A DNA stretch of 64,000 nucleotides from a virus (lineage: Duplodnaviria > Heunggongvirae > Uroviricota > Caudoviricetes): IMG/VR virus record IMGVR_UViG_3300042401_002002; one strand, given 5' to 3'. A program made the position numbers and the translations under genes. Below are positions 13,963 through 25,045 of this stretch, piece by piece. Below the pieces are notes generated by a model, which saw only the letters and a list, made by a program, of their open reading frames with translations, ran no database searches and had not been told where the DNA came from. Each line of letters begins with the position of its first letter. Position 1 is the first letter of the stretch.

Positions 13963-15954
13963 TTATATATAAGTTTCAATTGAAGCATAAACAGGTGTTG
14001 TACCACCAGTAAATGTTAAACCAACTAATTGGTTTGTTTCATCTAAACCTATAAAGTTTTTATTATTAATATCTATATTAGTTATCGTTATATTTGGTCT
14101 TAATGGTGATGCTTTATAACCATCATAGGCTAAACATGTTTTAATATTAGTATATATTTTAGTTGTAAAATCAGGTGTGTTAAAATTAATATTTTGAGTA
14201 CCTGGTGCAAATGTACAATTTGTCAAACCAACATTCCAAGCTAACATTCTAATATTTTTACACCTTTCACCAAAAGAACAATTAGTTATTTGTCCAACAT
14301 TTAAATATGTACTAATATTTTCACAACCTGATTTATATGTACTGTAATCAGAAAATAAATAAGGTGTTGCTCCTGTTGTGTTACTTATACCCAAATTCAA
14401 ACAGTTATCTAAATTATTGTAACTACCGTATAAATTAATATTATTAGAATTTTTAATAATGTTATTTGTATTAGTACCATAAGTTGTTGTATTTCCTGTT
14501 GTACCGATATTTATGTACGTTGAATTAGATACATCATGATAAGAACCACCAATAACTGAATTAACAACATTAGTTAATAATAAGTTATTACTTGTACTAA
14601 AAACTTTACTGTAATAAAATTTATTTATAATATTATTTGTACACCCCCCTTGAAAAATTGAATATCGCACGTCAAAGAAAGTAGAATCAGAATTACTTAA
14701 AATGTTATTAAATTGTGAACGAGATATAACTGTACCGTTACTCCCTCCACCAACTAAAATATTATTACTATAAGTTATTTCAGTATTATTAAACGCTCCA
14801 TCCACAAAAGTACTATTAGCCACGTTAGCTAATGTAATATTACTAAAAGTACCATTAATAATATTAAAATTATTAATATCATTAATTTTAAAATTTGTTA
14901 ATGAACCTTTAAATAAAGTTACATCTGTTACACTATCTGAAAAATATCCATTTTGACAAAAACTACTCCACAAAACAATATTAGGTTTGTGTGTGTAATT
15001 AGTTGATGTATAGTCATAAAAAGGTCTCCAACCGTTATAACTATAAAAACTATCTATTTCAATATTTTTATATTGTGTTGATGAATTATTATTTTCACTA
15101 TATGTTAAACCAAAAGTAAAACCTGATGTAACCCCTGTCATTGTATTACCGCTAATATATGTTGACGCTGAAGTAATAACAGGATATAATAAAATATCAG
15201 CCTTAACAGTTGTACCGTAATTAGTGGAACCTGTTTTTGTTAAATATATATCTGAATCAATTATACAAACTGAATTATCAGTTGTTGGCGGTGTACTAGC
15301 ACCAACGTTTTTAGAGTAAACATACAACTTACCATTGTACCATACATAATCACCGGTTCCACCTGTTACAGCAGGGTTATATTGATTATAATTTACTTTA
15401 TCAACAGGATACCTAAACATAATATGAGTTCTAAAATCATACCCCCTTACCTTAATATTTCTTACTGTATCATGCCTATAATAAATATACCCATTTCTTC
15501 TATAAACTTCAGTTCCATTAGGTAAAAGAAAACCGTTATTACTAAAATCATAATAAATTATATCTTGTGGGTAATCTTTACTGTAAACTTGTGTATGAAA
15601 ACTATAATCATCAACAGCTAATAATAATAACGTTTCTGTTTGTCCTGTATATACAATATTTGTATTATTAATACTATCAATAGTGTTATGATTTAATTCA
15701 TAATACATTCCAGATATTAAATCACCGGCTAATGCTAAACTCAATAAAGAATTGTAAGTATTACCTGTAACAATATTACTTTTATTAATAACCGTACTAA
15801 AGGAACCACCACCTATTTTATTATAGGTTATAACAGTACGTGCTACCGAATCAACAGTACTTACTGATTCAATAACCTCATCAACTAACCCATTATATTT
15901 AATTGCCCAAGCACCAACCTTATCAGCACCCTCAACAACTTTAAAATCACTCAT
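13963..15954 (-). CDS. Tail spike/fibre with parallel beta-helix repeats
   Basis: 663 aa with repeated N/G/T/S-rich ~22-aa segments (NNILVGGGSNGTVISRSQFNNILS...). Confidence 0.6.
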   Translation of the reverse strand: MSDFKVVEGADKVGAWAIKYNGLVDEVIESVSTVDSVARTVITYNKIGGGSFSTVINKSNIVTGNTYNSLLSLALAGDLISGMYYELNHNTIDSINNTNIVYTGQTETLLLLAVDDYSFHTQVYSKDYPQDIIYYDFSNNGFLLPNGTEVYRRNGYIYYRHDTVRNIKVRGYDFRTHIMFRYPVDKVNYNQYNPAVTGGTGDYVWYNGKLYVYSKNVGASTPPTTDNSVCIIDSDIYLTKTGSTNYGTTVKADILLYPVITSASTYISGNTMTGVTSGFTFGLTYSENNNSSTQYKNIEIDSFYSYNGWRPFYDYTSTNYTHKPNIVLWSSFCQNGYFSDSVTDVTLFKGSLTNFKINDINNFNIINGTFSNITLANVANSTFVDGAFNNTEITYSNNILVGGGSNGTVISRSQFNNILSNSDSTFFDVRYSIFQGGCTNNIINKFYYSKVFSTSNNLLLTNVVNSVIGGSYHDVSNSTYINIGTTGNTTTYGTNTNNIIKNSNNINLYGSYNNLDNCLNLGISNTTGATPYLFSDYSTYKSGCENISTYLNVGQITNCSFGERCKNIRMLAWNVGLTNCTFAPGTQNINFNTPDFTTKIYTNIKTCLAYDGYKASPLRPNITITNIDINNKNFIGLDETNQLVGLTFTGGTTPVYASIETYI

Positions 15955-17517: not shown

Positions 17518-19212
17518 ATGGCTGATATAACAATTTTACCAAAAACCAAACAAGAACTACAAGAAGAGTGGTTGAAATGCGCTCTTGATTTTGAATATTT
17601 TGCTGAGACTTATCTTAAAGTTGAAGATAAAAAAAAAGGTGGGTGGTTTCCTTTTAAATTAATGCCACATCAAAAAGATGTTTTTGAATTATATGAAAAT
17701 AATGAATTAGCTATAACTAATAAATATAGACAATCAGGTATTACCACCTTTACTTGTGCTTATTATACATGGAAAATGTGTTTCAATAAAAATATAAGAA
17801 TTGCAGTAATCGGTTCAAACTTAGAACATGCTAAAACTGAACTATTAAAACGTATATCAGATAATATTGAAGGTTTACCTGATTTTTTACGTATAGAAAC
17901 AATAATAGATTCACAAAAATATAAAACATATAAAAATGGTGGTGAAATAATCGCTAAAGCAGCTCAAGGAAATGCACTCAGGGGGACGAGTCCGAATCAT
18001 ATCATCCTAGATGAATTAGCACATTATGAGGACCTTGATAGTTTTTGGGAATCATCAAAATCAGCTTTTTCTATGGGGGGGTGTGTGAGAATCATAAGTA
18101 CCCCTTTAGGGTCAAGTAACATATTTTTTCAACTTTTTGATTTAGCTAAACAAGGTAAAAGTAGTTTTAAACCTATCGAATTAAAATGGTATCATGATAT
18201 ACGATTAAATACTGACCTTAAATGGGTTTCTGGGTCAGATGAAATTATTGAGTACAATAAAGATAAACAAAAAGAATTAATTTTAAAAGGTTATAAACCT
18301 ACATCTACATGGTATGAAAAAGAATGTGCAGGGTTTAATTATGATAAAAAGAAAATTGCACAAGAATTAGAAGGCGAATTCCTAGGTTCAGGTAATAGTT
18401 TTATAGATGAAGAATACATTAACCAACAGGAATTAGAAAACGTCTCAAAACCTATGTATTATGAACATAGTGATAAAAACTTTTGGATATGGAAATATCC
18501 TTTAAATAGTGAACAAAAATTTATATTTGGTGTTGATGTTTCGTTAGGTACAGCAGAAGACTATAGTACTATTACTGTAATGGATATGTTTAATTTAGAA
18601 ATGTATGCTGAATATAGAGGTAAAATACCACCAGATTTACTTGCTGATGTTGTTTACAAATTCGCAAACATATTCAATCATGCTTATGTTTGTGTTGATA
18701 TAACAGGTGGTTATGGTGTTGCAACAGTACAAAAATTAATTAATGAATATAGTTATAAAAATTTACATTACACTGAAATTAAAGATAGATATATAAAAGA
18801 TAGACTAGAAGGTGAAGCTAATGGTGATTTACGACCAGGTTTAACTATTGGGAAAAATCGCATGGAAATATTAGAATGTATGGCTAAAGCATTCAGAAGT
18901 GGTGAATTAATTATTAGGTCATCTAGATTAATTGATGAATTAAAAGGTTTTAAAGATGTGGGTGGGAAACCTGACCATAAAAGAGGTGGTACATCTGATT
19001 TAATTTTTTCATTAGCTATTGCATTATATGTTGGTGATAATAGTGGAACTACCATACTTAAAGCACTTGAAAGAACTAAATCTATGGTTTCATCATGGGT
19101 TGTTGTAAACTATAATAATGAAGATTTTGCTAGAGAACAAATTAAATTTGAAGAAAATTTAAAAAATAACGAAAATAATAATAAAATCCCTAGTTTATTT
19201 TATTTTAATTGA
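17518..19212 (+). CDS. terL: Terminase large subunit
   Basis: N-terminal ATPase with Walker-A-like YRQSGITT and Walker-B IILDELAH; C-terminal nuclease-like acidic residues. Confidence 0.8.
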   Translation: MADITILPKTKQELQEEWLKCALDFEYFAETYLKVEDKKKGGWFPFKLMPHQKDVFELYENNELAITNKYRQSGITTFTCAYYTWKMCFNKNIRIAVIGSNLEHAKTELLKRISDNIEGLPDFLRIETIIDSQKYKTYKNGGEIIAKAAQGNALRGTSPNHIILDELAHYEDLDSFWESSKSAFSMGGCVRIISTPLGSSNIFFQLFDLAKQGKSSFKPIELKWYHDIRLNTDLKWVSGSDEIIEYNKDKQKELILKGYKPTSTWYEKECAGFNYDKKKIAQELEGEFLGSGNSFIDEEYINQQELENVSKPMYYEHSDKNFWIWKYPLNSEQKFIFGVDVSLGTAEDYSTITVMDMFNLEMYAEYRGKIPPDLLADVVYKFANIFNHAYVCVDITGGYGVATVQKLINEYSYKNLHYTEIKDRYIKDRLEGEANGDLRPGLTIGKNRMEILECMAKAFRSGELIIRSSRLIDELKGFKDVGGKPDHKRGGTSDLIFSLAIALYVGDNSGTTILKALERTKSMVSSWVVVNYNNEDFAREQIKFEENLKNNENNNKIPSLFYFN

Positions 19213-19246
19213 TTACATTTGCATCGTAAATTTAAAACAAATAAAA

Positions 19247-22039
19247 ATGGCTAAAAAGTATTTTACTCCAGAACAAGTTAATCATATTATTGATTGTTAC
19301 GAAAATAAAAATTATTCTATTAAAAATATAGCTGTGGAATACAGATGTGACCCTGGTACTATTACTAGGGTCTTAAATGAAAATGACGTAAAAATTAAAG
19401 ATTATAGGATACCATTTACGCCTGAACAAGAAGAGTATATTAAAATACAATATAACAATGGTAAAAGTACAGTCAAATTAGGTGAAGAATTTGGTTGTTC
19501 AGCTAAAGCTATTGGGTCTTTCTTGAAAAGAAATGAAATAGTTGTAACTAAATCAACATTATTGTGTGATGAAGATATATCTAACATTATTTTAGATTAC
19601 ATTGAAAATTCACTTACTTTAGAAGTTATTTCCGCAAAATATAATATTGCTAAAAGAAGACTTTCAGATATTTTACAAGAAAAGGGTATTGAAACAAAAA
19701 ATAAATTATATAAAACATTTTCAGAAGAAGATGTTAAAGAGATTATCAAAATGTACACTATCGGATTTATTAGTTTAAAGAAGATAGGTGAAAAATATAA
19801 TTGCGATAAAAGTGTTATTAGTAATCTTCTAAAGAAAAACAAGATTGAAATATATGATAGAAACCTTAAACACCATTTAATTGACGATGAAACCGTTTGT
19901 AATGAACATATTAACGGTTTATCAATAAATGATTTAAGTAAAAAATATGGTTGTTCTGACACAGTTATTACTAGAATTTTACAAAAAAATAACATTGAAA
20001 CTATTAATCATAGATTTTATAATTTTTCTAAAGAACAAGTTGATGAATTAATTAGGTTATACACAACTGAACTTAAACCAACATCTGAGTTATCTGTTTT
20101 ATTTGACTGTACTGTTGATAGAGTTAATAAGATTTTACATGATAATAATGTATCTTTAATTAAACAAGCAGCAAATAAAATAACTTTCTCTACTGAAGAT
20201 ATTGATAAAATAAAAAGTTTACACAAAACAATGTCTAACAAAGAAATAGGTAGTTTATTTAATTGTAGTCCTGATACAATCAGACGACTTCTAAATAAGG
20301 AAGGTGTTAATACAAGTAAAAATTATCAAACCGAACAAAGTGTCATTGATAATATTGTTATTGATTATTCAATAAATAAACTTAGTACTAGAACATTATC
20401 TGAAAAATATAATTTCTCTCAAACGTATATTAGTAAGGTTTTAAAAGAAAATAATGTTGAAGCTAATTTAAGATATATAATTTCAGTTTCTTCTGATGAA
20501 GAGAAAGAAATTATTAGAAAACATGTTGAAGATAGAAAAACTTTAACTGAGATTAGTAATGAATATGGCATTAATATTAAATTTTTAAGTGAAAATATCT
20601 TTAAAAAGAATAATATTAATATTCAACTTAAAAAACCTGCTCAAGAGAAATTAAATATTGAACAAATATTAACCGAACTAAAAACAGGTAAAGGTATTTC
20701 AACTATCGCTAGAGAGAATAATTGTTCTTTCGGTACTATAAACTCAATAGCTATTAGTAATGGAATTAAAACAACAAATGAATTAACAGATGTTTTTACT
20801 AATGAGTTGATTCTTAAAAAAGAAAATAGAAGATTTGTATTTGATAATTATCAAACTAAATTTGTTATTGAAAAATACACTAATGGTGCAACAATAAAAC
20901 AAATTAGTAATTTCCTTAAAGTTGACTATACTACAATCCACAGGGTACTTGTAAATAACAATATAAAGGTTCAACATAAATTATTAAAAACATTTACTGA
21001 ACAAGTTGAAGAAGATATCTGTTCAGAATACGTTGATAATAACAAAACTATGTTAGAAATTGGCAAACTATACAATGTGTCACAATCAGTTATTAGAAAA
21101 GTTCTAATAAAACACAACGTAGAAATTACCAATAATTATTATTCATCGGTTAACGAAAATAAAATTCGTTATATTCTTGGTTATTTTATTCCAACTATTC
21201 ACAAGAAATCAGATTGTGATAATATTTTGCAAGCTAAGGAAATAGACATTATTGATTATACCAAAAAGATTGGTATAGAATATAACGGAACATATTTTCA
21301 TAGAAGCGAGAATAAATCCGAAACTTATCATATTGATAAAACAAAAGAAGCTTCGTCTGCCGGTTATAAACTGTATCATGTTTTTGATGATGAATATGTA
21401 CATGATTCTGTTAAAATAATAAACCGACTTTTGAAGTTATTTAAAACAGGTTTGTATATTACTGAAGATACTTATGATGAACTAGAAGAATGTTTCTTCA
21501 GCAATACTAGTTACGATGAAATTTACATTGAAGGTTTAGTTAAAACCAAACTACCACTTTCTGAATGTACGATAACTAAAGTTGAACCAACTAAACAATA
21601 TTATCAGTTTTACACTGCGTTTGGTTTATTGAAATCTTACGATGAAACTATTAATAATGTCAATTACAATATTGAACATAAAGAATACGGTTTAATTGGT
21701 TATATTAGTATTAATAAAACAACCAATACTGTTGAAAATTTATTCATTGAAGATGATTATGTAATTACAGGTTTAAACAAAAGAATCTTTGATTTATATT
21801 TAAATGAATTTAAACCAACTGAGTTATTTATTGAAATTGACAGAAGATACGCTTCAGAGCCAGAGAATTTATCTGGTTTATCATTTGAGTTAATTAACGA
21901 AACAGAACCTAGAATTCATTATTTTAAGAATTATTCAAGATATATCGCAACTAATGAAACTAATTTAGAATTGGATTCTGATGTTGAGTGGAACATTATT
22001 CACGATTGTGGGACTTGGAAATATAAATTGATTAAATAA
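19247..22039 (+). CDS. 930-aa protein with about 13 tandem HTH-like modules and a C-terminal putative Vsr/DUF559-like nuclease domain
   Basis: Repeated ~48-aa units (..IA.EY.CS..TI.R.L..N.I..), then IDIIDYTKKIGIEYNGTYFH. Confidence 0.55.
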   Translation: MAKKYFTPEQVNHIIDCYENKNYSIKNIAVEYRCDPGTITRVLNENDVKIKDYRIPFTPEQEEYIKIQYNNGKSTVKLGEEFGCSAKAIGSFLKRNEIVVTKSTLLCDEDISNIILDYIENSLTLEVISAKYNIAKRRLSDILQEKGIETKNKLYKTFSEEDVKEIIKMYTIGFISLKKIGEKYNCDKSVISNLLKKNKIEIYDRNLKHHLIDDETVCNEHINGLSINDLSKKYGCSDTVITRILQKNNIETINHRFYNFSKEQVDELIRLYTTELKPTSELSVLFDCTVDRVNKILHDNNVSLIKQAANKITFSTEDIDKIKSLHKTMSNKEIGSLFNCSPDTIRRLLNKEGVNTSKNYQTEQSVIDNIVIDYSINKLSTRTLSEKYNFSQTYISKVLKENNVEANLRYIISVSSDEEKEIIRKHVEDRKTLTEISNEYGINIKFLSENIFKKNNINIQLKKPAQEKLNIEQILTELKTGKGISTIARENNCSFGTINSIAISNGIKTTNELTDVFTNELILKKENRRFVFDNYQTKFVIEKYTNGATIKQISNFLKVDYTTIHRVLVNNNIKVQHKLLKTFTEQVEEDICSEYVDNNKTMLEIGKLYNVSQSVIRKVLIKHNVEITNNYYSSVNENKIRYILGYFIPTIHKKSDCDNILQAKEIDIIDYTKKIGIEYNGTYFHRSENKSETYHIDKTKEASSAGYKLYHVFDDEYVHDSVKIINRLLKLFKTGLYITEDTYDELEECFFSNTSYDEIYIEGLVKTKLPLSECTITKVEPTKQYYQFYTAFGLLKSYDETINNVNYNIEHKEYGLIGYISINKTTNTVENLFIEDDYVITGLNKRIFDLYLNEFKPTELFIEIDRRYASEPENLSGLSFELINETEPRIHYFKNYSRYIATNETNLELDSDVEWNIIHDCGTWKYKLIK

Positions 22040-22093
22040 TATTAAGGTAATTAAACATAAAAGTTGTAAGACTATTTACAATAAACGACTTTT

Positions 22094-25045
22094 ATGTTTA
22101 ATAACAAACCTAAAGAAATTGAATTGATAAATGAAGGTTTAATTCCAAGTATATTATCACATCAAGAAATGTTAAAAATGGGTGCGACAGGTGCTTTATC
22201 AAGAGCATTTGAAAGATATATTCTTTTAGATAAAATAGAAGGATTAGACCCAGAACCTTCTACATGGGGTGATGGTTATGAATTTAAAAAAGGTGAAGAA
22301 ATTAAAAGTTCAATCGAAGTTATTTACGATAAAGACCGTGATATTTATTTTTTACAAAACGGTAATCATCGCATTAAACAAGCTAGAGTTAACGGTGATA
22401 AATATATACGTGCATTTATACAACCAGATAATGGTAAAATAGGTAATGATGCAAAATTATCTATAAGTGAATCATTAAATGAAACACGACTTAACGAAGG
22501 TTACGAAGAAATTAAAGATATTAATGAATTAGCTAATGATATTATATATTCATTAAGTTATAAATTAAATGCAACAAAAACACCTAGTAAAAGTAACCCA
22601 GGTACATATTTATATGAATTTAATAAAGCTATTACTACAATAGAAGAATCTATTAATTTTCAAAAAACTGTTAAATATCAAAATTTTACATCTAATAATT
22701 TTAAAAACTTTTGTGATAAGTTTAAAAATATTTCAATTACTTTTGAAAAAGGTTCAAAGGATAATGAAGGTAGATACAATCTTAATACTAAGAGTATTAT
22801 ATTATTTATTACAGATGAAAAAGAACTAGAAATTAATCAAGATTTAAATATTGATAATAAAGTTACAACTACTAAAGATATATATTTTAAAATTCATGGT
22901 AAGTTCATTTCTATATTAGAACATGAATTACAACATGTTTATGATGACTATATTTCAAAAGGTCAAGCTTTTAATGTTAAACAAACTAAACATGAATACG
23001 ATTATACTCAATTTGATGATGCTAAAGAATATTTAAATTTACCTTATGAAGTTAATGCTAGATTTACTCAAGCTATTAATAAAATTAATTTCTTAGAATT
23101 AGTGGATTTTACTGATGATAATAAACAAATTGAAAGACCTTATGAATTTAAAAAAGTATTACGTGATTTTTTATATCAATTTCCACATAAACATTTGTTA
23201 AATCAAAATGTTAAAAATACTGTTATCAAAAGGTTATATAATATTTACAACAAAGCTATTGAAAAAGCTAAAACTGATGATAAAATTGAGTTAATTAAAG
23301 AAAATAACTTAGATTACACTACAACTGATGATAAAAATAATGTTTTAATTTATGTTGATGGTAATAAAATATTAAACAAATTAAAAACTGATTCACCAGA
23401 GTTTGATATTACTAATAAAGATAACCAAATTGGTAATAGAGTTGAGAAAGCTAAAGAGTTTATTAGTAATTACAAAACCGACAAAAGACCAATTCACCCT
23501 ACGACAGGTGAAAGAATAGATTATTTAGGTAAACATAGTTTTGAACCTTCAGTTGCATCTTTTGATATGAATGGTAAGTTAGGTTTTACTGACGGTAGAC
23601 ATAGAATATTAGCAGCAATTGAATCTGGAATAAACAAAGTAGGTGTATTAGTACCTAAAAACCAAGTAGATATGTTTAAAGATTTAATAAACGAATCCAA
23701 CTCACAACTTGAAGACACGTTTATTAAAATAAATTCACCAAATATTAAATCACACATTGATTCTTTAATTAATAAATACAGTGAGAAATCTGAGGTTATG
23801 AATTATATTAAACATGCTGATGAAGAATCAAATAAACCTGAGTATTCTATTTCATATACATATTGTAAAAAACTAATTAGTTTAGCTACTAATTTAAAAG
23901 ACAAACATGGTCTTGATAAAGATAAATTTGAATTATATGGTGGTTTTCCTCTTATAAATTATTTATCAAAAGAACTAAATAATAAACGTGAAATAATATC
24001 ACGTTCTAAAAAAATAAAAACTATGGCAGGATTTAATCACCAATATAACAAAGAACATGAAAGAGTTGGTTTAATTAAGAATGGTAAAAAATATGTTGAT
24101 AGAAATTTAAGAGAATGTATTGAATTAATTAAAGAATCTGAAGTTAAGGTAAATAAAGAAGCTTCATGTATTGTTTTATTAAATGAAGACAAAAAAATAT
24201 TATTACTTAAACGTAGTGATAAAACCCCTTGGGAACCTGGTAAATGGTCTTTAGTTGGTGGAAAGATTGATTTAGGTGAAAACGCTAAAGAAGCTGCTAT
24301 TAGAGAATGTGGTGAGGAAACAGGTTTAGGTATCAAAGGAAATAAATTAATTTATTGTTTCACAATGAAAGAGGATGACTATGAAGTTAATTTCTTTATT
24401 GGTGTTTCTGAAGGTAGTGATGTTAGATTAAATGGTGAACATACTGAATATAAATGGGTTAACCCAAATGAAATACCTGAACTAGAAACAGTACCTAATT
24501 TATTAGGTGAAATTAAAAAGTGTTTTGAAACGTTAAATGAAAATAAAGAAGAAACGGTTATTAACGAAGAATTCAATAAAACTGAATATTTAAAATGGAA
24601 ACGTAATAATGTAACATATAGAGGAATTAAAGAATTAGGTCAAGATAACAATGTTTATGGTTCTTTTGGTAAAGGTTTATATACTGTACCAGCTAGCAAT
24701 AAAGTTATGGCTAAAACTTTCGGAAAACTTTATTTTGTTGTAAATGGTATACCAAAAAATCCTAAAGTTGTTAATTCATTAAATGATGCTGAAATGTTCA
24801 GATATAATCTTATTAATGAATATTGTAAACAACATAATAACATTAAATCAGACGGATTTTTTGATGATAATACATCAATGGAAGCTGAAATGTTAAAGCT
24901 TGGTTATGATGGTTTTGTTATTAAAGGTAGAGAAATGGTTAATTATAAACCTGAAAATGATAAGGTTAAATATTTTTCAAATGAAAACCAATTAATTCAA
25001 TATTATGAAAACTTTATCGAAAACAATAATTCTGTTATTAACTAA
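22094..25045 (+). CDS. 983-aa multidomain protein: two ParB/Srx-like domains plus a NUDIX hydrolase domain
   Basis: LQNGNHRIKQA and GFTDGRHRILAAIESG (ParB-N-like); Nudix box GGKIDLGENAKEAAIRECGEETGL. Confidence 0.7.
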   Translation: MFNNKPKEIELINEGLIPSILSHQEMLKMGATGALSRAFERYILLDKIEGLDPEPSTWGDGYEFKKGEEIKSSIEVIYDKDRDIYFLQNGNHRIKQARVNGDKYIRAFIQPDNGKIGNDAKLSISESLNETRLNEGYEEIKDINELANDIIYSLSYKLNATKTPSKSNPGTYLYEFNKAITTIEESINFQKTVKYQNFTSNNFKNFCDKFKNISITFEKGSKDNEGRYNLNTKSIILFITDEKELEINQDLNIDNKVTTTKDIYFKIHGKFISILEHELQHVYDDYISKGQAFNVKQTKHEYDYTQFDDAKEYLNLPYEVNARFTQAINKINFLELVDFTDDNKQIERPYEFKKVLRDFLYQFPHKHLLNQNVKNTVIKRLYNIYNKAIEKAKTDDKIELIKENNLDYTTTDDKNNVLIYVDGNKILNKLKTDSPEFDITNKDNQIGNRVEKAKEFISNYKTDKRPIHPTTGERIDYLGKHSFEPSVASFDMNGKLGFTDGRHRILAAIESGINKVGVLVPKNQVDMFKDLINESNSQLEDTFIKINSPNIKSHIDSLINKYSEKSEVMNYIKHADEESNKPEYSISYTYCKKLISLATNLKDKHGLDKDKFELYGGFPLINYLSKELNNKREIISRSKKIKTMAGFNHQYNKEHERVGLIKNGKKYVDRNLRECIELIKESEVKVNKEASCIVLLNEDKKILLLKRSDKTPWEPGKWSLVGGKIDLGENAKEAAIRECGEETGLGIKGNKLIYCFTMKEDDYEVNFFIGVSEGSDVRLNGEHTEYKWVNPNEIPELETVPNLLGEIKKCFETLNENKEETVINEEFNKTEYLKWKRNNVTYRGIKELGQDNNVYGSFGKGLYTVPASNKVMAKTFGKLYFVVNGIPKNPKVVNSLNDAEMFRYNLINEYCKQHNNIKSDGFFDDNTSMEAEMLKLGYDGFVIKGREMVNYKPENDKVKYFSNENQLIQYYENFIENNNSVIN

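What the first reader, a model, noticed from the sequence alone, without database searches (positions are those of the whole stretch)
19247..22039. 930-aa protein built from about 13 HTH modules plus a putative Vsr/DUF559-like nuclease domain, immediately downstream of terL
The first about 640 aa are tandem ~48-aa helix-turn-helix-like units with a recurring ..I(A/S)..Y.(C/V)S...I.R(I/L)L..N.I pattern. Further on, IDIIDYTKKIGIEYNGTYFH resembles the (D)...E.DG..H core of Vsr-like PD-(D/E)xK endonucleases. Homing endonucleases often lie next to terminase genes, but this protein is far larger than known NUMOD/HNH/GIY-YIG types. It could be an unusual DNA-recognition or packaging specificity protein (a giant small-terminase analogue) or a mobile nuclease.
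Basis: partly seen in the sequence, partly recalled or inferred. Interest (0 to 1): 0.55.

Follow-up and report, generated by a model that had tools for sequence, protein, structure and literature searches.

The report
Hef-like homing endonuclease with 12 HTH modules
The 930-residue gene next to the phage terminase gene is most likely a selfish, mobile DNA-cutting enzyme of the known 'Hef-like' family.

Summary

The gene behaves as a mobile element. Among eight related phage lineages the terL-downstream site holds alleles with 12, 12, 12 (broken), 11, 8, 6 and 5 HTH units. One lineage has an empty site with conserved synteny. The HTH array and the 5' half of terL are recombinant imports (dS about 1.0, against 0.15-0.3 for the backbone).

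The small-terminase reading is rejected.

Verdict: a new variant of a known kind, with an extreme HTH array. In most family members the GNAT domain keeps Mom's catalytic residues. In this protein most of them are lost.

The parts
19247..22039 (+). Complete free-standing homing-endonuclease gene (930 aa plus stop)
   Evidence: ORF list. The identical protein is on a 265-308 kb metagenomic phage contig. Orthologs of 933 and 932 aa start the same way, MAKKYF / MNKKNF.
19253..21136 (+). Array of 12 tandem HTH modules (residues 3-630). Unit coordinates in nt: 19253-19402, 19406-19552, 19562-19705, 19709-19858, 19865-20011, 20015-20167, 20177-20323, 20324-20464, 20480-20632, 20645-20782, [linker 20783-20830], 20831-20980, 20987-21136.
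   Evidence: Unit HMM. Pfam HTH_38 5e-24, HTH_28, HTH_23, HTH_7. NCBIfam Cbp1-like multi-HTH, 8 stretches. Consensus ..F..e....Ii..Y..n.ks...Is..YnCs...I...iL.kNnIe.
21137..21502 (+). Vsr-like / EDxHD-type PD-(D/E)xK nuclease domain (residues about 631-752). Putative active site: E637, D667, E678, N680, H685, H695/D697, K698.
21530..22036 (+). C-terminal GNAT-fold, Mom-like domain (residues about 762-930). It keeps D865 and R867, but has G793, N831, K845 and L875 at the positions of Mom H58, R111, S124 and Y159.
19213..19246 (+). 34-nt terL-HEG spacer, the upstream junction of the element
   Evidence: Nearly identical in the 12-unit alleles (window, L006, L008) and unrelated in L009, L013 and L012.
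22040..22093 (+). 54-nt spacer between the HEG and the 983-aa NUDIX gene, the downstream junction
   Evidence: Relatives L006 and L009 carry an extra 250/268-aa ORF here. The motif ACTATTTAcAAtAAA..TTTTATG just before the NUDIX gene is shared with the empty-site relative L012.
17518..19212 (+). terL, the flanking gene. It shows a recombinant patch in its 5' half and is the likely co-conversion or target region.
   Evidence: Pfam and PHROG. nt identity to L006 is 55-75% at 17581-18180 against 94-100% in the flanks. dS is 0.92 for codons 1-250.

Best explanation
This is a free-standing homing endonuclease gene of the Hef-like (EDxHD / Vsr-like) family, lodged between terL and the large NUDIX-protein gene of a jumbo phage.

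Shown here:
- The protein has three parts: an N-terminal array of 12 HTH modules, a Vsr-fold nuclease with the family's catalytic residues intact, and a C-terminal GNAT/Mom-like domain.
- The gene is present, absent, or present with a different number of HTH modules at the same site in related phages.
- The HTH array and the adjacent part of terL are recombinant relative to the genome backbone.

Inferred by analogy with I-Bth0305I and phage U5 Hef:
- The HTH array lays the protein along a long stretch of DNA, tens of base pairs to about 100 bp. Each unit would contact one major-groove subsite, anchoring the nuclease at a site in or near terL or the intergenic region of a co-infecting relative that lacks this allele.
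- Two nuclease domains come together to make a double-strand break.
- Repair using the HEG-bearing genome as template copies the gene and flanking terL sequence into the recipient.

The GNAT domain has lost most Mom-type catalytic residues in this protein. It most likely serves as a structural or dimerisation module rather than an enzyme. This last point is inference, held with low confidence.
For: - Family membership. tblastn of the C-terminal 300 aa hits 171 phage records, many annotated Hef or Hef-like homing endonuclease: Campylobacter phages, AR9 g146 inside an RNAP beta' intron, LIMEstone F-LimVII. An exhaustive HMMER search finds 4,492 representatives. BFVD gives whole-module structural matches at TMq 0.57-0.74 to phage 'homing endonuclease' proteins.
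- Nuclease fold and residues.
- Literature. Taylor et al. 2011 (PMC3239194) already placed Hef-type enzymes in the Vsr-like EDxHD family. They showed that I-Bth0305I is a homodimer with an N-terminal HTH/NUMOD region, a C-terminal nuclease and a footprint of about 60 bp. [quoted passage not shown]
- Mobility. The site is empty in L012 with synteny conserved on both sides and no tblastn trace of the gene. Alleles at this site have 12, 12, 12 (frameshifted), 11, 8, 6 and 5 units.
- Recombination. L008 is window-like (97-99%) over units 1-3 and L006-like from about unit 6 onward, to the end of its contig in unit 11. dS is about 1.0 for the HTH array and the terL 5' half, against 0.15-0.31 for the backbone and the nuclease/GNAT region.
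- Selection. The nuclease/GNAT region has dN/dS of about 0.045.
- Setting. No intron or intein was found in the window: Rfam has no hits.
- Module reuse. The same HTH unit flanks a GIY-YIG nuclease in P0154.
Against: - No cleavage site, target or homing event is demonstrated.
- The gene sits at the same site in 7 of 8 lineages with TerL at least 60% identical. This could equally mean long vertical residence or domestication.
- The fifth EDxHD residue aligns to an invariant His (H695) rather than Asp, although D697 lies two residues on.
- The window protein alone does not reach any Pfam nuclease gathering threshold.
- The role of the GNAT domain is unknown.
- The L008 frameshift could be an assembly error.
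Confidence: 0.75

Rival explanations
1. Domesticated nuclease for competition or exclusion. The protein is no longer, or not only, a selfish homing element. The phage keeps it to cut the genomes of co-infecting relatives (marker exclusion) or host DNA, and divergent HTH arrays set the specificity of each allele.
For: - An intact ORF sits at the same locus in 7 of 8 related lineages.
- There is strong purifying selection on the nuclease/GNAT region, dN/dS about 0.045.
- The HTH arrays are highly divergent and shuffled, which fits diversifying specificities.
Against: This is hard to separate from homing, because marker exclusion is a by-product of free-standing homing endonucleases. The empty site in L012 and a broken copy in L008 fit the gain, decay and loss cycle of a selfish element better than an indispensable weapon.
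Confidence: 0.13
2. Packaging-specificity factor, either a giant TerS analogue or a terminase-associated nuclease. The HTH array would recognise the pac/cos region and the nuclease would assist TerL, as HNH proteins do in HK97-like phages.
For: - The gene lies immediately downstream of terL.
- There is a faint phrog_1206 TerS hit on one HTH (E 9e-5).
- HNH nucleases next to terminase genes with a role in cos cleavage are known (PMC3592412 abstract).
Against: - The gene is absent from syntenic relative L012, which has an intact terL.
- The number of HTH units varies from 5 to 12 between close relatives.
- The module is the same one found in intron-encoded and free-standing homing endonucleases at unrelated loci in many phages.
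- TerL has its own nuclease-domain signal (Terminase_6C).
Confidence: 0.04
3. Transposase or IS-element protein, as JGI annotated it, or a multi-HTH transcription regulator.
For: The HTH units hit transposase-type HTH families: HTH_38, HTH_Tnp_ISL3, and IS630/IS21/IS256 N-termini. JGI names it 'transposase'.
Against: All of these hits fall on the HTH units only. There is no DDE, serine or tyrosine recombinase domain. The C-terminus is a Vsr-fold nuclease plus a GNAT domain. No paralogous copies or terminal repeats were found in the 64-kb window.
Confidence: 0.02
4. Primarily a site-directed DNA-modifying enzyme. The Mom-like GNAT domain would aminoacylate or acylate adenines at sites chosen by the HTH array, with the nuclease secondary.
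Against: The equivalents of Mom's essential R111 and S124, and of H58 and Y159, are N, K, G and L in this protein and its closest relatives. The region around the H58 equivalent is low-confidence in the model (pLDDT below 50 at residues 784-796). The nuclease residues are all intact.
Confidence: 0.04

Closest known systems
Hef-like free-standing homing endonucleases of phages: U5 Hef, Campylobacter phage Hef, LIMEstone F-LimIII/VII/VIII/X, Bacillus AR9/PBS1 g146
   Same: The Vsr-like nuclease plus C-terminal GNAT-like module is alignable end to end: residues 651/660-930 by tblastn, and whole-module Foldseek TMq up to 0.74. The layout is the same, with N-terminal DNA-binding modules and a free-standing gene between conserved phage genes.
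   Different: Typical members are about 400-600 aa. Their N-termini carry zinc-finger, CapR, DUF7487, DUF723 or ROS_MUCR modules. This protein has 12 HTH units, the highest count among the 150 best representatives. Its GNAT domain has lost residues that most members conserve.
I-Bth0305I, prototype of the EDxHD homing endonuclease family (PDB 3R3P)
   Different: I-Bth0305I is 266 aa, intron-encoded, has two HTH-like motifs and no GNAT domain. Its D222 aligns here to the invariant H695, with D697 nearby.
Vsr mismatch endonuclease and DUF559 / MTES_1575 proteins
   Different: This is not a T:G mismatch repair enzyme. There is no Dcm partner, it is fused to sequence-specific DNA-binding modules, and its Pfam scores are below the curated thresholds.
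Phage Mu Mom, a Gly-tRNA-dependent DNA adenine-modifying GNAT
   Different: In this protein only the D149 and R151 equivalents remain. Whether Mom's essential HTH-like insertion (residues about 175-209) has a counterpart here was not examined. No modification activity is known for any Hef-like protein.
Multi-HTH DNA binders: Cbp1 of Sulfolobales, paired/Myb-type repeats, and HTH/NUMOD arrays in GIY-YIG and HNH homing endonucleases
   Same: Tandem three-helix HTH units are used additively for long-site recognition. NCBIfam Cbp1 matches 8 stretches. The same unit type occurs in GIY-YIG enzymes: BcepSauron and P0154, with 5+5 units.
   Different: The count of 12 contiguous units is well above the 2-3 in these proteins and the 5-6 typical of relatives.

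Membership tests
Hef-like / EDxHD (Vsr-like) homing endonucleases | Catalytic domain with the Vsr-type PD-(D/E)xK fold | tested here: met
Hef-like / EDxHD (Vsr-like) homing endonucleases | Sequence homology to the I-Bth0305I / Hef catalytic domain | tested here: met
   Family profile against PDB: 3r3p, E 6.6e-6. tblastn to annotated Hef and Hef-like genes, E 1e-5 to 6e-10.
Hef-like / EDxHD (Vsr-like) homing endonucleases | EDxHD catalytic residues (I-Bth0305I E170, D196, N208, H213, D222) | tested here: inconclusive
   E637, D667, N680 and H685 are present and invariant or nearly so. D222 aligns to the invariant H695 in the HMMER register. D697 lies two residues later, and that position is N, D or E in 105 of 138 members.
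Hef-like / EDxHD (Vsr-like) homing endonucleases | N-terminal modular DNA-binding region followed by the nuclease | tested here: met
   12 HTH units lie upstream of the nuclease. Relatives swap in zinc-finger, CapR or DUF7487 modules.
Hef-like / EDxHD (Vsr-like) homing endonucleases | Mobile-element behaviour: sporadic presence at a conserved site | tested here: met
   Empty site in L012 with conserved flanks. Alleles with 5 to 12 units in seven other lineages. Recombinant allele in L008.
Hef-like / EDxHD (Vsr-like) homing endonucleases | Site-specific double-strand cleavage near its own locus, and homing | not testable with these tools
   Needs biochemistry or mixed infections. Only indirect evidence here: mosaicism in terL.
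Pfam DUF559 / MTES_1575 / Vsr families | Score at or above the curated gathering threshold | tested here: not met
   MTES_1575 scores 21.8 bits against a cutoff of 38.2. This protein gives no DUF559 or Vsr hit. Of 84 relatives, 44, 6 and 4 hit these families at E<=1e-3. The relationship is at superfamily level only.
Mom-type DNA-modifying GNAT (Pfam PF25680) | GNAT fold | tested here: met
Mom-type DNA-modifying GNAT (Pfam PF25680) | Essential catalytic residues R111, S124, R151 (plus H58, D149, Y159), per PMC13219725 | tested here: not met
   This protein has N831, K845, R867, G793, D865 and L875 at those positions. Only 2 of 6 are kept. It gives no Pfam Mom hit.
Small terminase (TerS) | Essential core gene with a TerS family signature, conserved with terL | tested here: not met
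   No TerS Pfam hit. phrog_1206 matches only 33 residues of one HTH. The gene is absent in syntenic L012.
NUMOD / IENR-type homing endonuclease DNA-binding modules | Match to the NUMOD1, NUMOD3 or IENR profiles | tested here: not met
   No NUMOD family appears among the Pfam hits listed, the best 25 of 33. The units match HTH_38, HTH_23 and HTH_7-type models.
Transposase (DDE / IS) | Catalytic transposase domain | tested here: not met
   Only the N-terminal HTH parts of IS-family models match. The C-terminus is a nuclease plus GNAT.

The most novel reading that the evidence does not exclude
The 12-unit HTH array may be a naturally modular, recombination-shuffled DNA-recognition scaffold. Each unit of about 50 aa would read its own subsite along a contiguous target of about 60-120 bp. 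Phage populations would re-programme homing endonuclease specificity by swapping, adding or deleting units, as the 5, 6, 8, 11 and 12-unit alleles and the L008 chimera suggest.

A second, family-wide possibility also remains open. In most Hef-like enzymes the GNAT domain keeps every Mom catalytic residue. It might therefore be an active, tRNA- or acyl-dependent DNA-modifying domain that marks or protects the enzyme's own target site, which would make these enzymes bifunctional nuclease-modification proteins.
Probability: 0.15. Interest if true: 0.8.

Novelty: new variant of a known kind. Interest (0 to 1): 0.42.

Why it matters
Homing endonucleases shape phage genome mosaicism and are starting points for genome-editing reagents.

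- **A natural series of alleles.** This locus offers one nuclease module attached to 5 to 12 HTH units at one conserved site, with a chimeric allele caught in the act. It is a good system for asking how long-site recognition is built and re-built from HTH modules. It also allows a test of whether terL mosaicism is driven by endonuclease-mediated co-conversion.

- **An overlooked Mom-like domain.** The analysis shows that the widespread Hef-like family carries a Mom-like GNAT domain, and that Mom's catalytic residues are conserved in most members. I found no paper in the library making this link. Mom was recently shown to use Gly-tRNA to modify DNA, so the link suggests a testable second activity for a large class of phage 'homing endonucleases'.

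For the gene in this window itself the result is less dramatic: it is an oversized member of a known family.

Tried and rejected
- **Word-indexed protein search** with the C-terminal 300 aa found nothing. The exhaustive HMMER search was needed.
- **Single-sequence AF2** of the C-terminal module was useless, pLDDT 33. It was repeated with a 39-sequence alignment.
- **blastn against cultured phages** found no DNA-level relative.
- **IMG/VR scan with TerL** found nothing. The metagenome-contig scan gave only one 30%-identical TerL.
- **Tandem Repeats Finder** found no DNA repeat under the HTH array. The units are old and diverged.
- **Promoter and terminator scan** was uninformative in this 25% GC sequence: 46 sites against 38 +/- 7 expected.
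- **Rfam and tRNA scans** found nothing, so there is no group I intron around the gene.
- **Search for paralogs** of the HTH unit, nuclease or GNAT domain elsewhere in the 64-kb window found none.
- **The original Hef paper** (PMC1275590) is not held, so Hef properties are cited second-hand from PMC3322345 and PMC2988022.
- **Literature searches** linking Hef-like enzymes with GNAT or Mom found nothing. One search was wasted on generic terms.
- **Readings rejected:** TerS analogue, transposase, and classical Vsr repair enzyme. Reasons are given under the rival explanations and the membership test.
Full report
**1. The observation**

The ORF is at 19247..22039 (+) and encodes 930 aa. It starts 34 nt after the stop codon of a 564-aa large terminase at 17518..19212. 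That neighbour matches Pfam Terminase_6N and phrog_2.

It found four more units on its own, at E 1e-6 to 1e-12. A rebuilt model gives 12 units covering residues 3-630, with one 16-residue linker between units 10 and 11. The units are 12-35% identical to each other. They leave no DNA-level tandem repeat, so this is an old, diverged array rather than a recent amplification.

Pfam assigns the units to three-helix HTH families: HTH_38 at 5e-24, then HTH_28, HTH_23 and HTH_7. NCBIfam's multi-HTH Cbp1 model matches eight stretches. The count is therefore 12 rather than about 13. The rest of the description is accurate.

**2. The C-terminal 300 residues**

Alone, the protein gives only a sub-threshold MTES_1575 hit at residues 672-730 (21.8 bits against a cutoff of 38.2). 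It also gives a faint GNAT hit (Acetyltransf_10, E 0.007).

tblastn against cultured phages aligned residues 651/660-930 to genes annotated 'Hef' or 'Hef-like homing endonuclease'. These include genes in Campylobacter phages, Bacillus AR9/PBS1 and Dickeya LIMEstone phages. AR9 g146 sits inside an intron of the RNAP beta' gene. With the 300-aa module alone, 171 phage records match.

The word-indexed protein search failed. An exhaustive HMMER search found 4,492 cluster representatives at E<=1e-3. In 138 of the top 150, the nuclease core is followed by a tail of similar length, median about 185 aa.

A family alignment shows the following conservation:
- Invariant: D667, E678, H685 and K698. E665, G681, H695 and G922 are invariant in the smaller alignments and 99% conserved in the largest.
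- Nearly invariant: S634, E637, Y694, F713, E716, F788, D865, P888, D920, C921.

Used as a profile against PDB sequences, the family hits the I-Bth0305I catalytic domain (3r3p, E 6.6e-6). It also hits GNAT acetyltransferases separately (2bsw, 5.8e-4).

**3. Structure**

Single-sequence AF2 was useless, with pLDDT 33. With a 39-sequence alignment the 300-aa module folds at pLDDT 86.7 and pTM 0.86.

Foldseek against PDB returns only GNATs among its top hits. Foldseek against BFVD matches the whole two-domain module, at TMq 0.57-0.74, in about 23 phage proteins. Some of these are named homing endonuclease, in PA5oct and CP21.

A third domain is added.

**4. Active sites**

Taylor et al. 2011 (PMC3239194) define the I-Bth0305I active site as E170, D196, N208, H213 and D222. 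These correspond to Vsr E25, D51, H64, H69 and D97. That paper had already placed phage Hef-type enzymes in the family.

In the HMMER register these residues map to E637, D667, N680, H685 and H695. The first four are conserved here. The fifth aligns to an invariant His rather than Asp. D697 lies two residues later, and that position is N, D or E in 105 of 138 members. I score this feature as inconclusive.

For the GNAT domain, the family profile aligns to Mu Mom in a register that hhalign reproduces with weak statistics. This register places Mom H58, R111, S124, D149, R151 and Y159 on family columns. These are the residues shown or proposed to matter in PMC13219725. Among 138 members, those columns are H in 97, R in 101, S in 64, D in 132, R in 125 and Y in 105. 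In addition, 11 of 84 relatives hit Pfam Mom directly, with a best E of 6e-9.

The window protein and its closest relatives differ: those with HTH arrays have G/I, N, K/S/I/N, D, R/K and L/F at these positions. The segment around the H58 equivalent is the lowest-confidence part of the model.

The family as a whole therefore looks like a nuclease fused to a potentially active Mom-like enzyme. In this particular protein the GNAT domain looks catalytically degenerate.

**5. Modularity of the family**

Among 84 representatives the N-terminal regions carry DUF7487 (22), DUF723 (11), DUF4379 treble-clef fingers (11), ROS_MUCR (11), CapR (4) or HTH units (about 7).

With my unit model, 12 units is the maximum among the top 150. 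It is shared only with the ortholog P0001. One protein has 10 units and four have 6. Other long members of 822-1,039 aa exist, some with more divergent HTH arrays.

The same unit type also flanks a GIY-YIG domain in P0154, with 5+5 units. It matches GIY-YIG enzymes of Burkholderia jumbo phages as well.

So the array is extreme in length but built from a module that phage homing endonucleases already use.

**6. Genomic context and mobility**

The identical protein lies on 265-308 kb metagenomic contigs, which indicates a jumbo phage. The window is about 25% GC.

I retrieved TerL relatives and their neighbourhoods. In the clade with TerL at least 60% identical, the flanks are syntenic. The 246- and 247-aa genes lie upstream on the minus strand. 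In most of these lineages a large NUDIX protein lies downstream. The gene after terL varies as follows:

| Locus | TerL identity to window | Gene after terL |
|---|---|---|
| window | - | 930 aa, 12 units |
| L006 / L007 | 73% | 933 aa, 12 units |
| L008 | 82% | 12-unit gene split by a frameshift (418 + at least 186 aa) |
| L019 | 67% | 11 units (cut by contig end) |
| L013 | 61% | 783 aa, 8 units |
| L020 | 63% | 6 units (cut by contig end) |
| L009 / L010 | 66% | 554 aa, 5 units |
| L012 | 60% | nothing: a 243-bp spacer with a 50-codon ORF |

L012 shows no tblastn trace of the gene. More distant TerL relatives (50% or less) have different neighbours, and the three checked (L015-L017) lack the gene.

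**7. Recombination**

Against L006, nucleotide identity is as follows:
- 94-100% in the flanking genes and at the terL start.
- 55-75% across terL codons of about 22-220.
- 76-88% in the rest of terL, rising to 96% at its 3' end.
- 49-79% across the HTH array.
- 84-96% across the nuclease and GNAT domains.

Synonymous divergence tells the same story. dS is 0.15-0.31 for gp246, gp247 and HE codons 631-930. It is 0.92 for terL codons 1-250 and 1.09 for the HTH array. These two segments are therefore imports from more distant alleles rather than just fast-evolving stretches. dN/dS is 0.33 for the array and 0.045 for the nuclease/GNAT region.

L008 is a chimera. Units 1-3 are 97-99% identical to the window and about 57% to L006. 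From about unit 6 to the end of its contig, in unit 11, it is 73-93% identical to L006. P0001 and P0002 share a near-identical GNAT domain but differ elsewhere.

Breakpoints thus fall between domains and between HTH units. The neighbouring terL carries a recombinant patch, as expected from endonuclease-driven co-conversion. That interpretation is an inference.

**8. Mechanism proposed**

*Shown.* A three-part protein with an intact Vsr-type active site, encoded by a sporadically distributed, recombining, free-standing gene. No intron or RNA family was detected.

*Inferred from I-Bth0305I and Hef.* I-Bth0305I is a homodimer with a footprint of about 60 bp from only two HTH-like motifs. Hef cleaves nrdB, next to its own locus. 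By analogy:
- the HTH array binds a long asymmetric site;
- two nuclease domains pair to make a double-strand break in a genome that lacks this allele;
- recombinational repair copies the gene and flanking terL DNA.

The GNAT domain may supply the dimer interface, since Mom crystallises as a dimer. This is speculation.

**9. Rivals**

- **Packaging-specificity or TerS role.** This is contradicted by the empty site in L012, by the variable unit number, and by the occurrence of the same module at unrelated loci and inside introns.
- **'Transposase' annotation.** It rests only on HTH hits.
- **Domesticated exclusion nuclease.** This cannot be separated from homing with these data and keeps about 13% of my belief.
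- **Primarily DNA-modifying role.** This is unlikely for this protein because Mom's essential residues are missing.

**10. Novelty and score**

The gene is a new variant of a known kind: a Hef-like / EDxHD homing endonuclease with an unusually long HTH array. A specialist would find the 5-to-12-unit allelic series and the chimeric allele useful rather than astonishing.

The family-wide conservation of Mom's catalytic residues next to a Vsr-type nuclease is the more surprising by-product. I found no paper in the held library describing it. The link is visible in Pfam hits, however, and it does not apply functionally to this protein.

Overall interest is 0.42.

Noticed in passing
Family-wide (P0005-P0150). 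Window equivalents: residues 793, 831, 845, 865, 867, 875 (nt about 21623-21871).: Most Hef-like homing endonucleases keep the residues that are essential in phage Mu Mom. Among 138 members the columns are H in 97, R in 101, S in 64, D in 132, R in 125 and Y in 105. These enzymes may therefore be bifunctional nuclease plus DNA-modifying enzymes. No paper in the held library mentions this.
   Followed up: partly
L006:9718-10470 and L009:11433-12239. Window junction at 22040-22093.: A 250/268-aa ORF with no Pfam match sits between the endonuclease gene and the NUDIX gene in two relatives. It is absent from the window and from L012, so it is a second variable cassette at the same junction.
   Followed up: partly
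window 22094-25045: The 983-aa NUDIX protein is a shortened version of 1,199-1,639-aa proteins in relatives, which also carry ART-PolyVal and a faint ParB_N domain. The visible start of the L006 copy aligns to window 22071-22139 and then jumps to 22493-22555. This implies an indel of about 350 nt near the 5' end.
   Followed up: partly
TerL relatives P0203, P0207, P0208 (766-768 aa), P0185 (867 aa), P0189 (958 aa): Several related TerL proteins are 200-400 aa longer. Two of them carry an intein-splicing domain (PF14890). L016 has an HNH gene abutting terL, and L015 has a NUMOD3 gene nearby. terL appears to be a hot spot for different mobile elements in this phage group.
   Followed up: no
L008:4491-6319: The 12-unit gene in this relative is split into two ORFs by a frameshift in unit 8, and it is a chimera of window-like and L006-like segments. 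It is either a decaying copy or an assembly error.
   Followed up: partly
window 13963-15954 (-): The 663-aa protein has a hypervariable central stretch: 52-77% nt identity to L006 at about 14650-15450, against 94-99% in the adjacent 246- and 247-aa genes. I suspect it is a tail-fibre or receptor-binding protein, but this is a guess and no family search was run on it.
   Followed up: no
P0154 (780 aa, metagenomic): The same HTH unit type occurs as 5 units, then a GIY-YIG nuclease, then 5 units. The array is therefore a portable module shared between unrelated nuclease classes.
   Followed up: partly
L019 and L020 (both from sample ERZ19570326): Two related phages from one sample carry different alleles at the same terL-downstream site, with 11 and 6 HTH units. 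Alternative alleles therefore co-occur in one community.
   Followed up: partly
window 19213-19246, and the equivalent spacers in relatives: No Shine-Dalgarno-like sequence precedes the gene. L009 and L013 share a T(A/G)(C/T)AACCTTTAT motif in the spacer upstream of their endonuclease genes, possibly a phage promoter.
   Followed up: no
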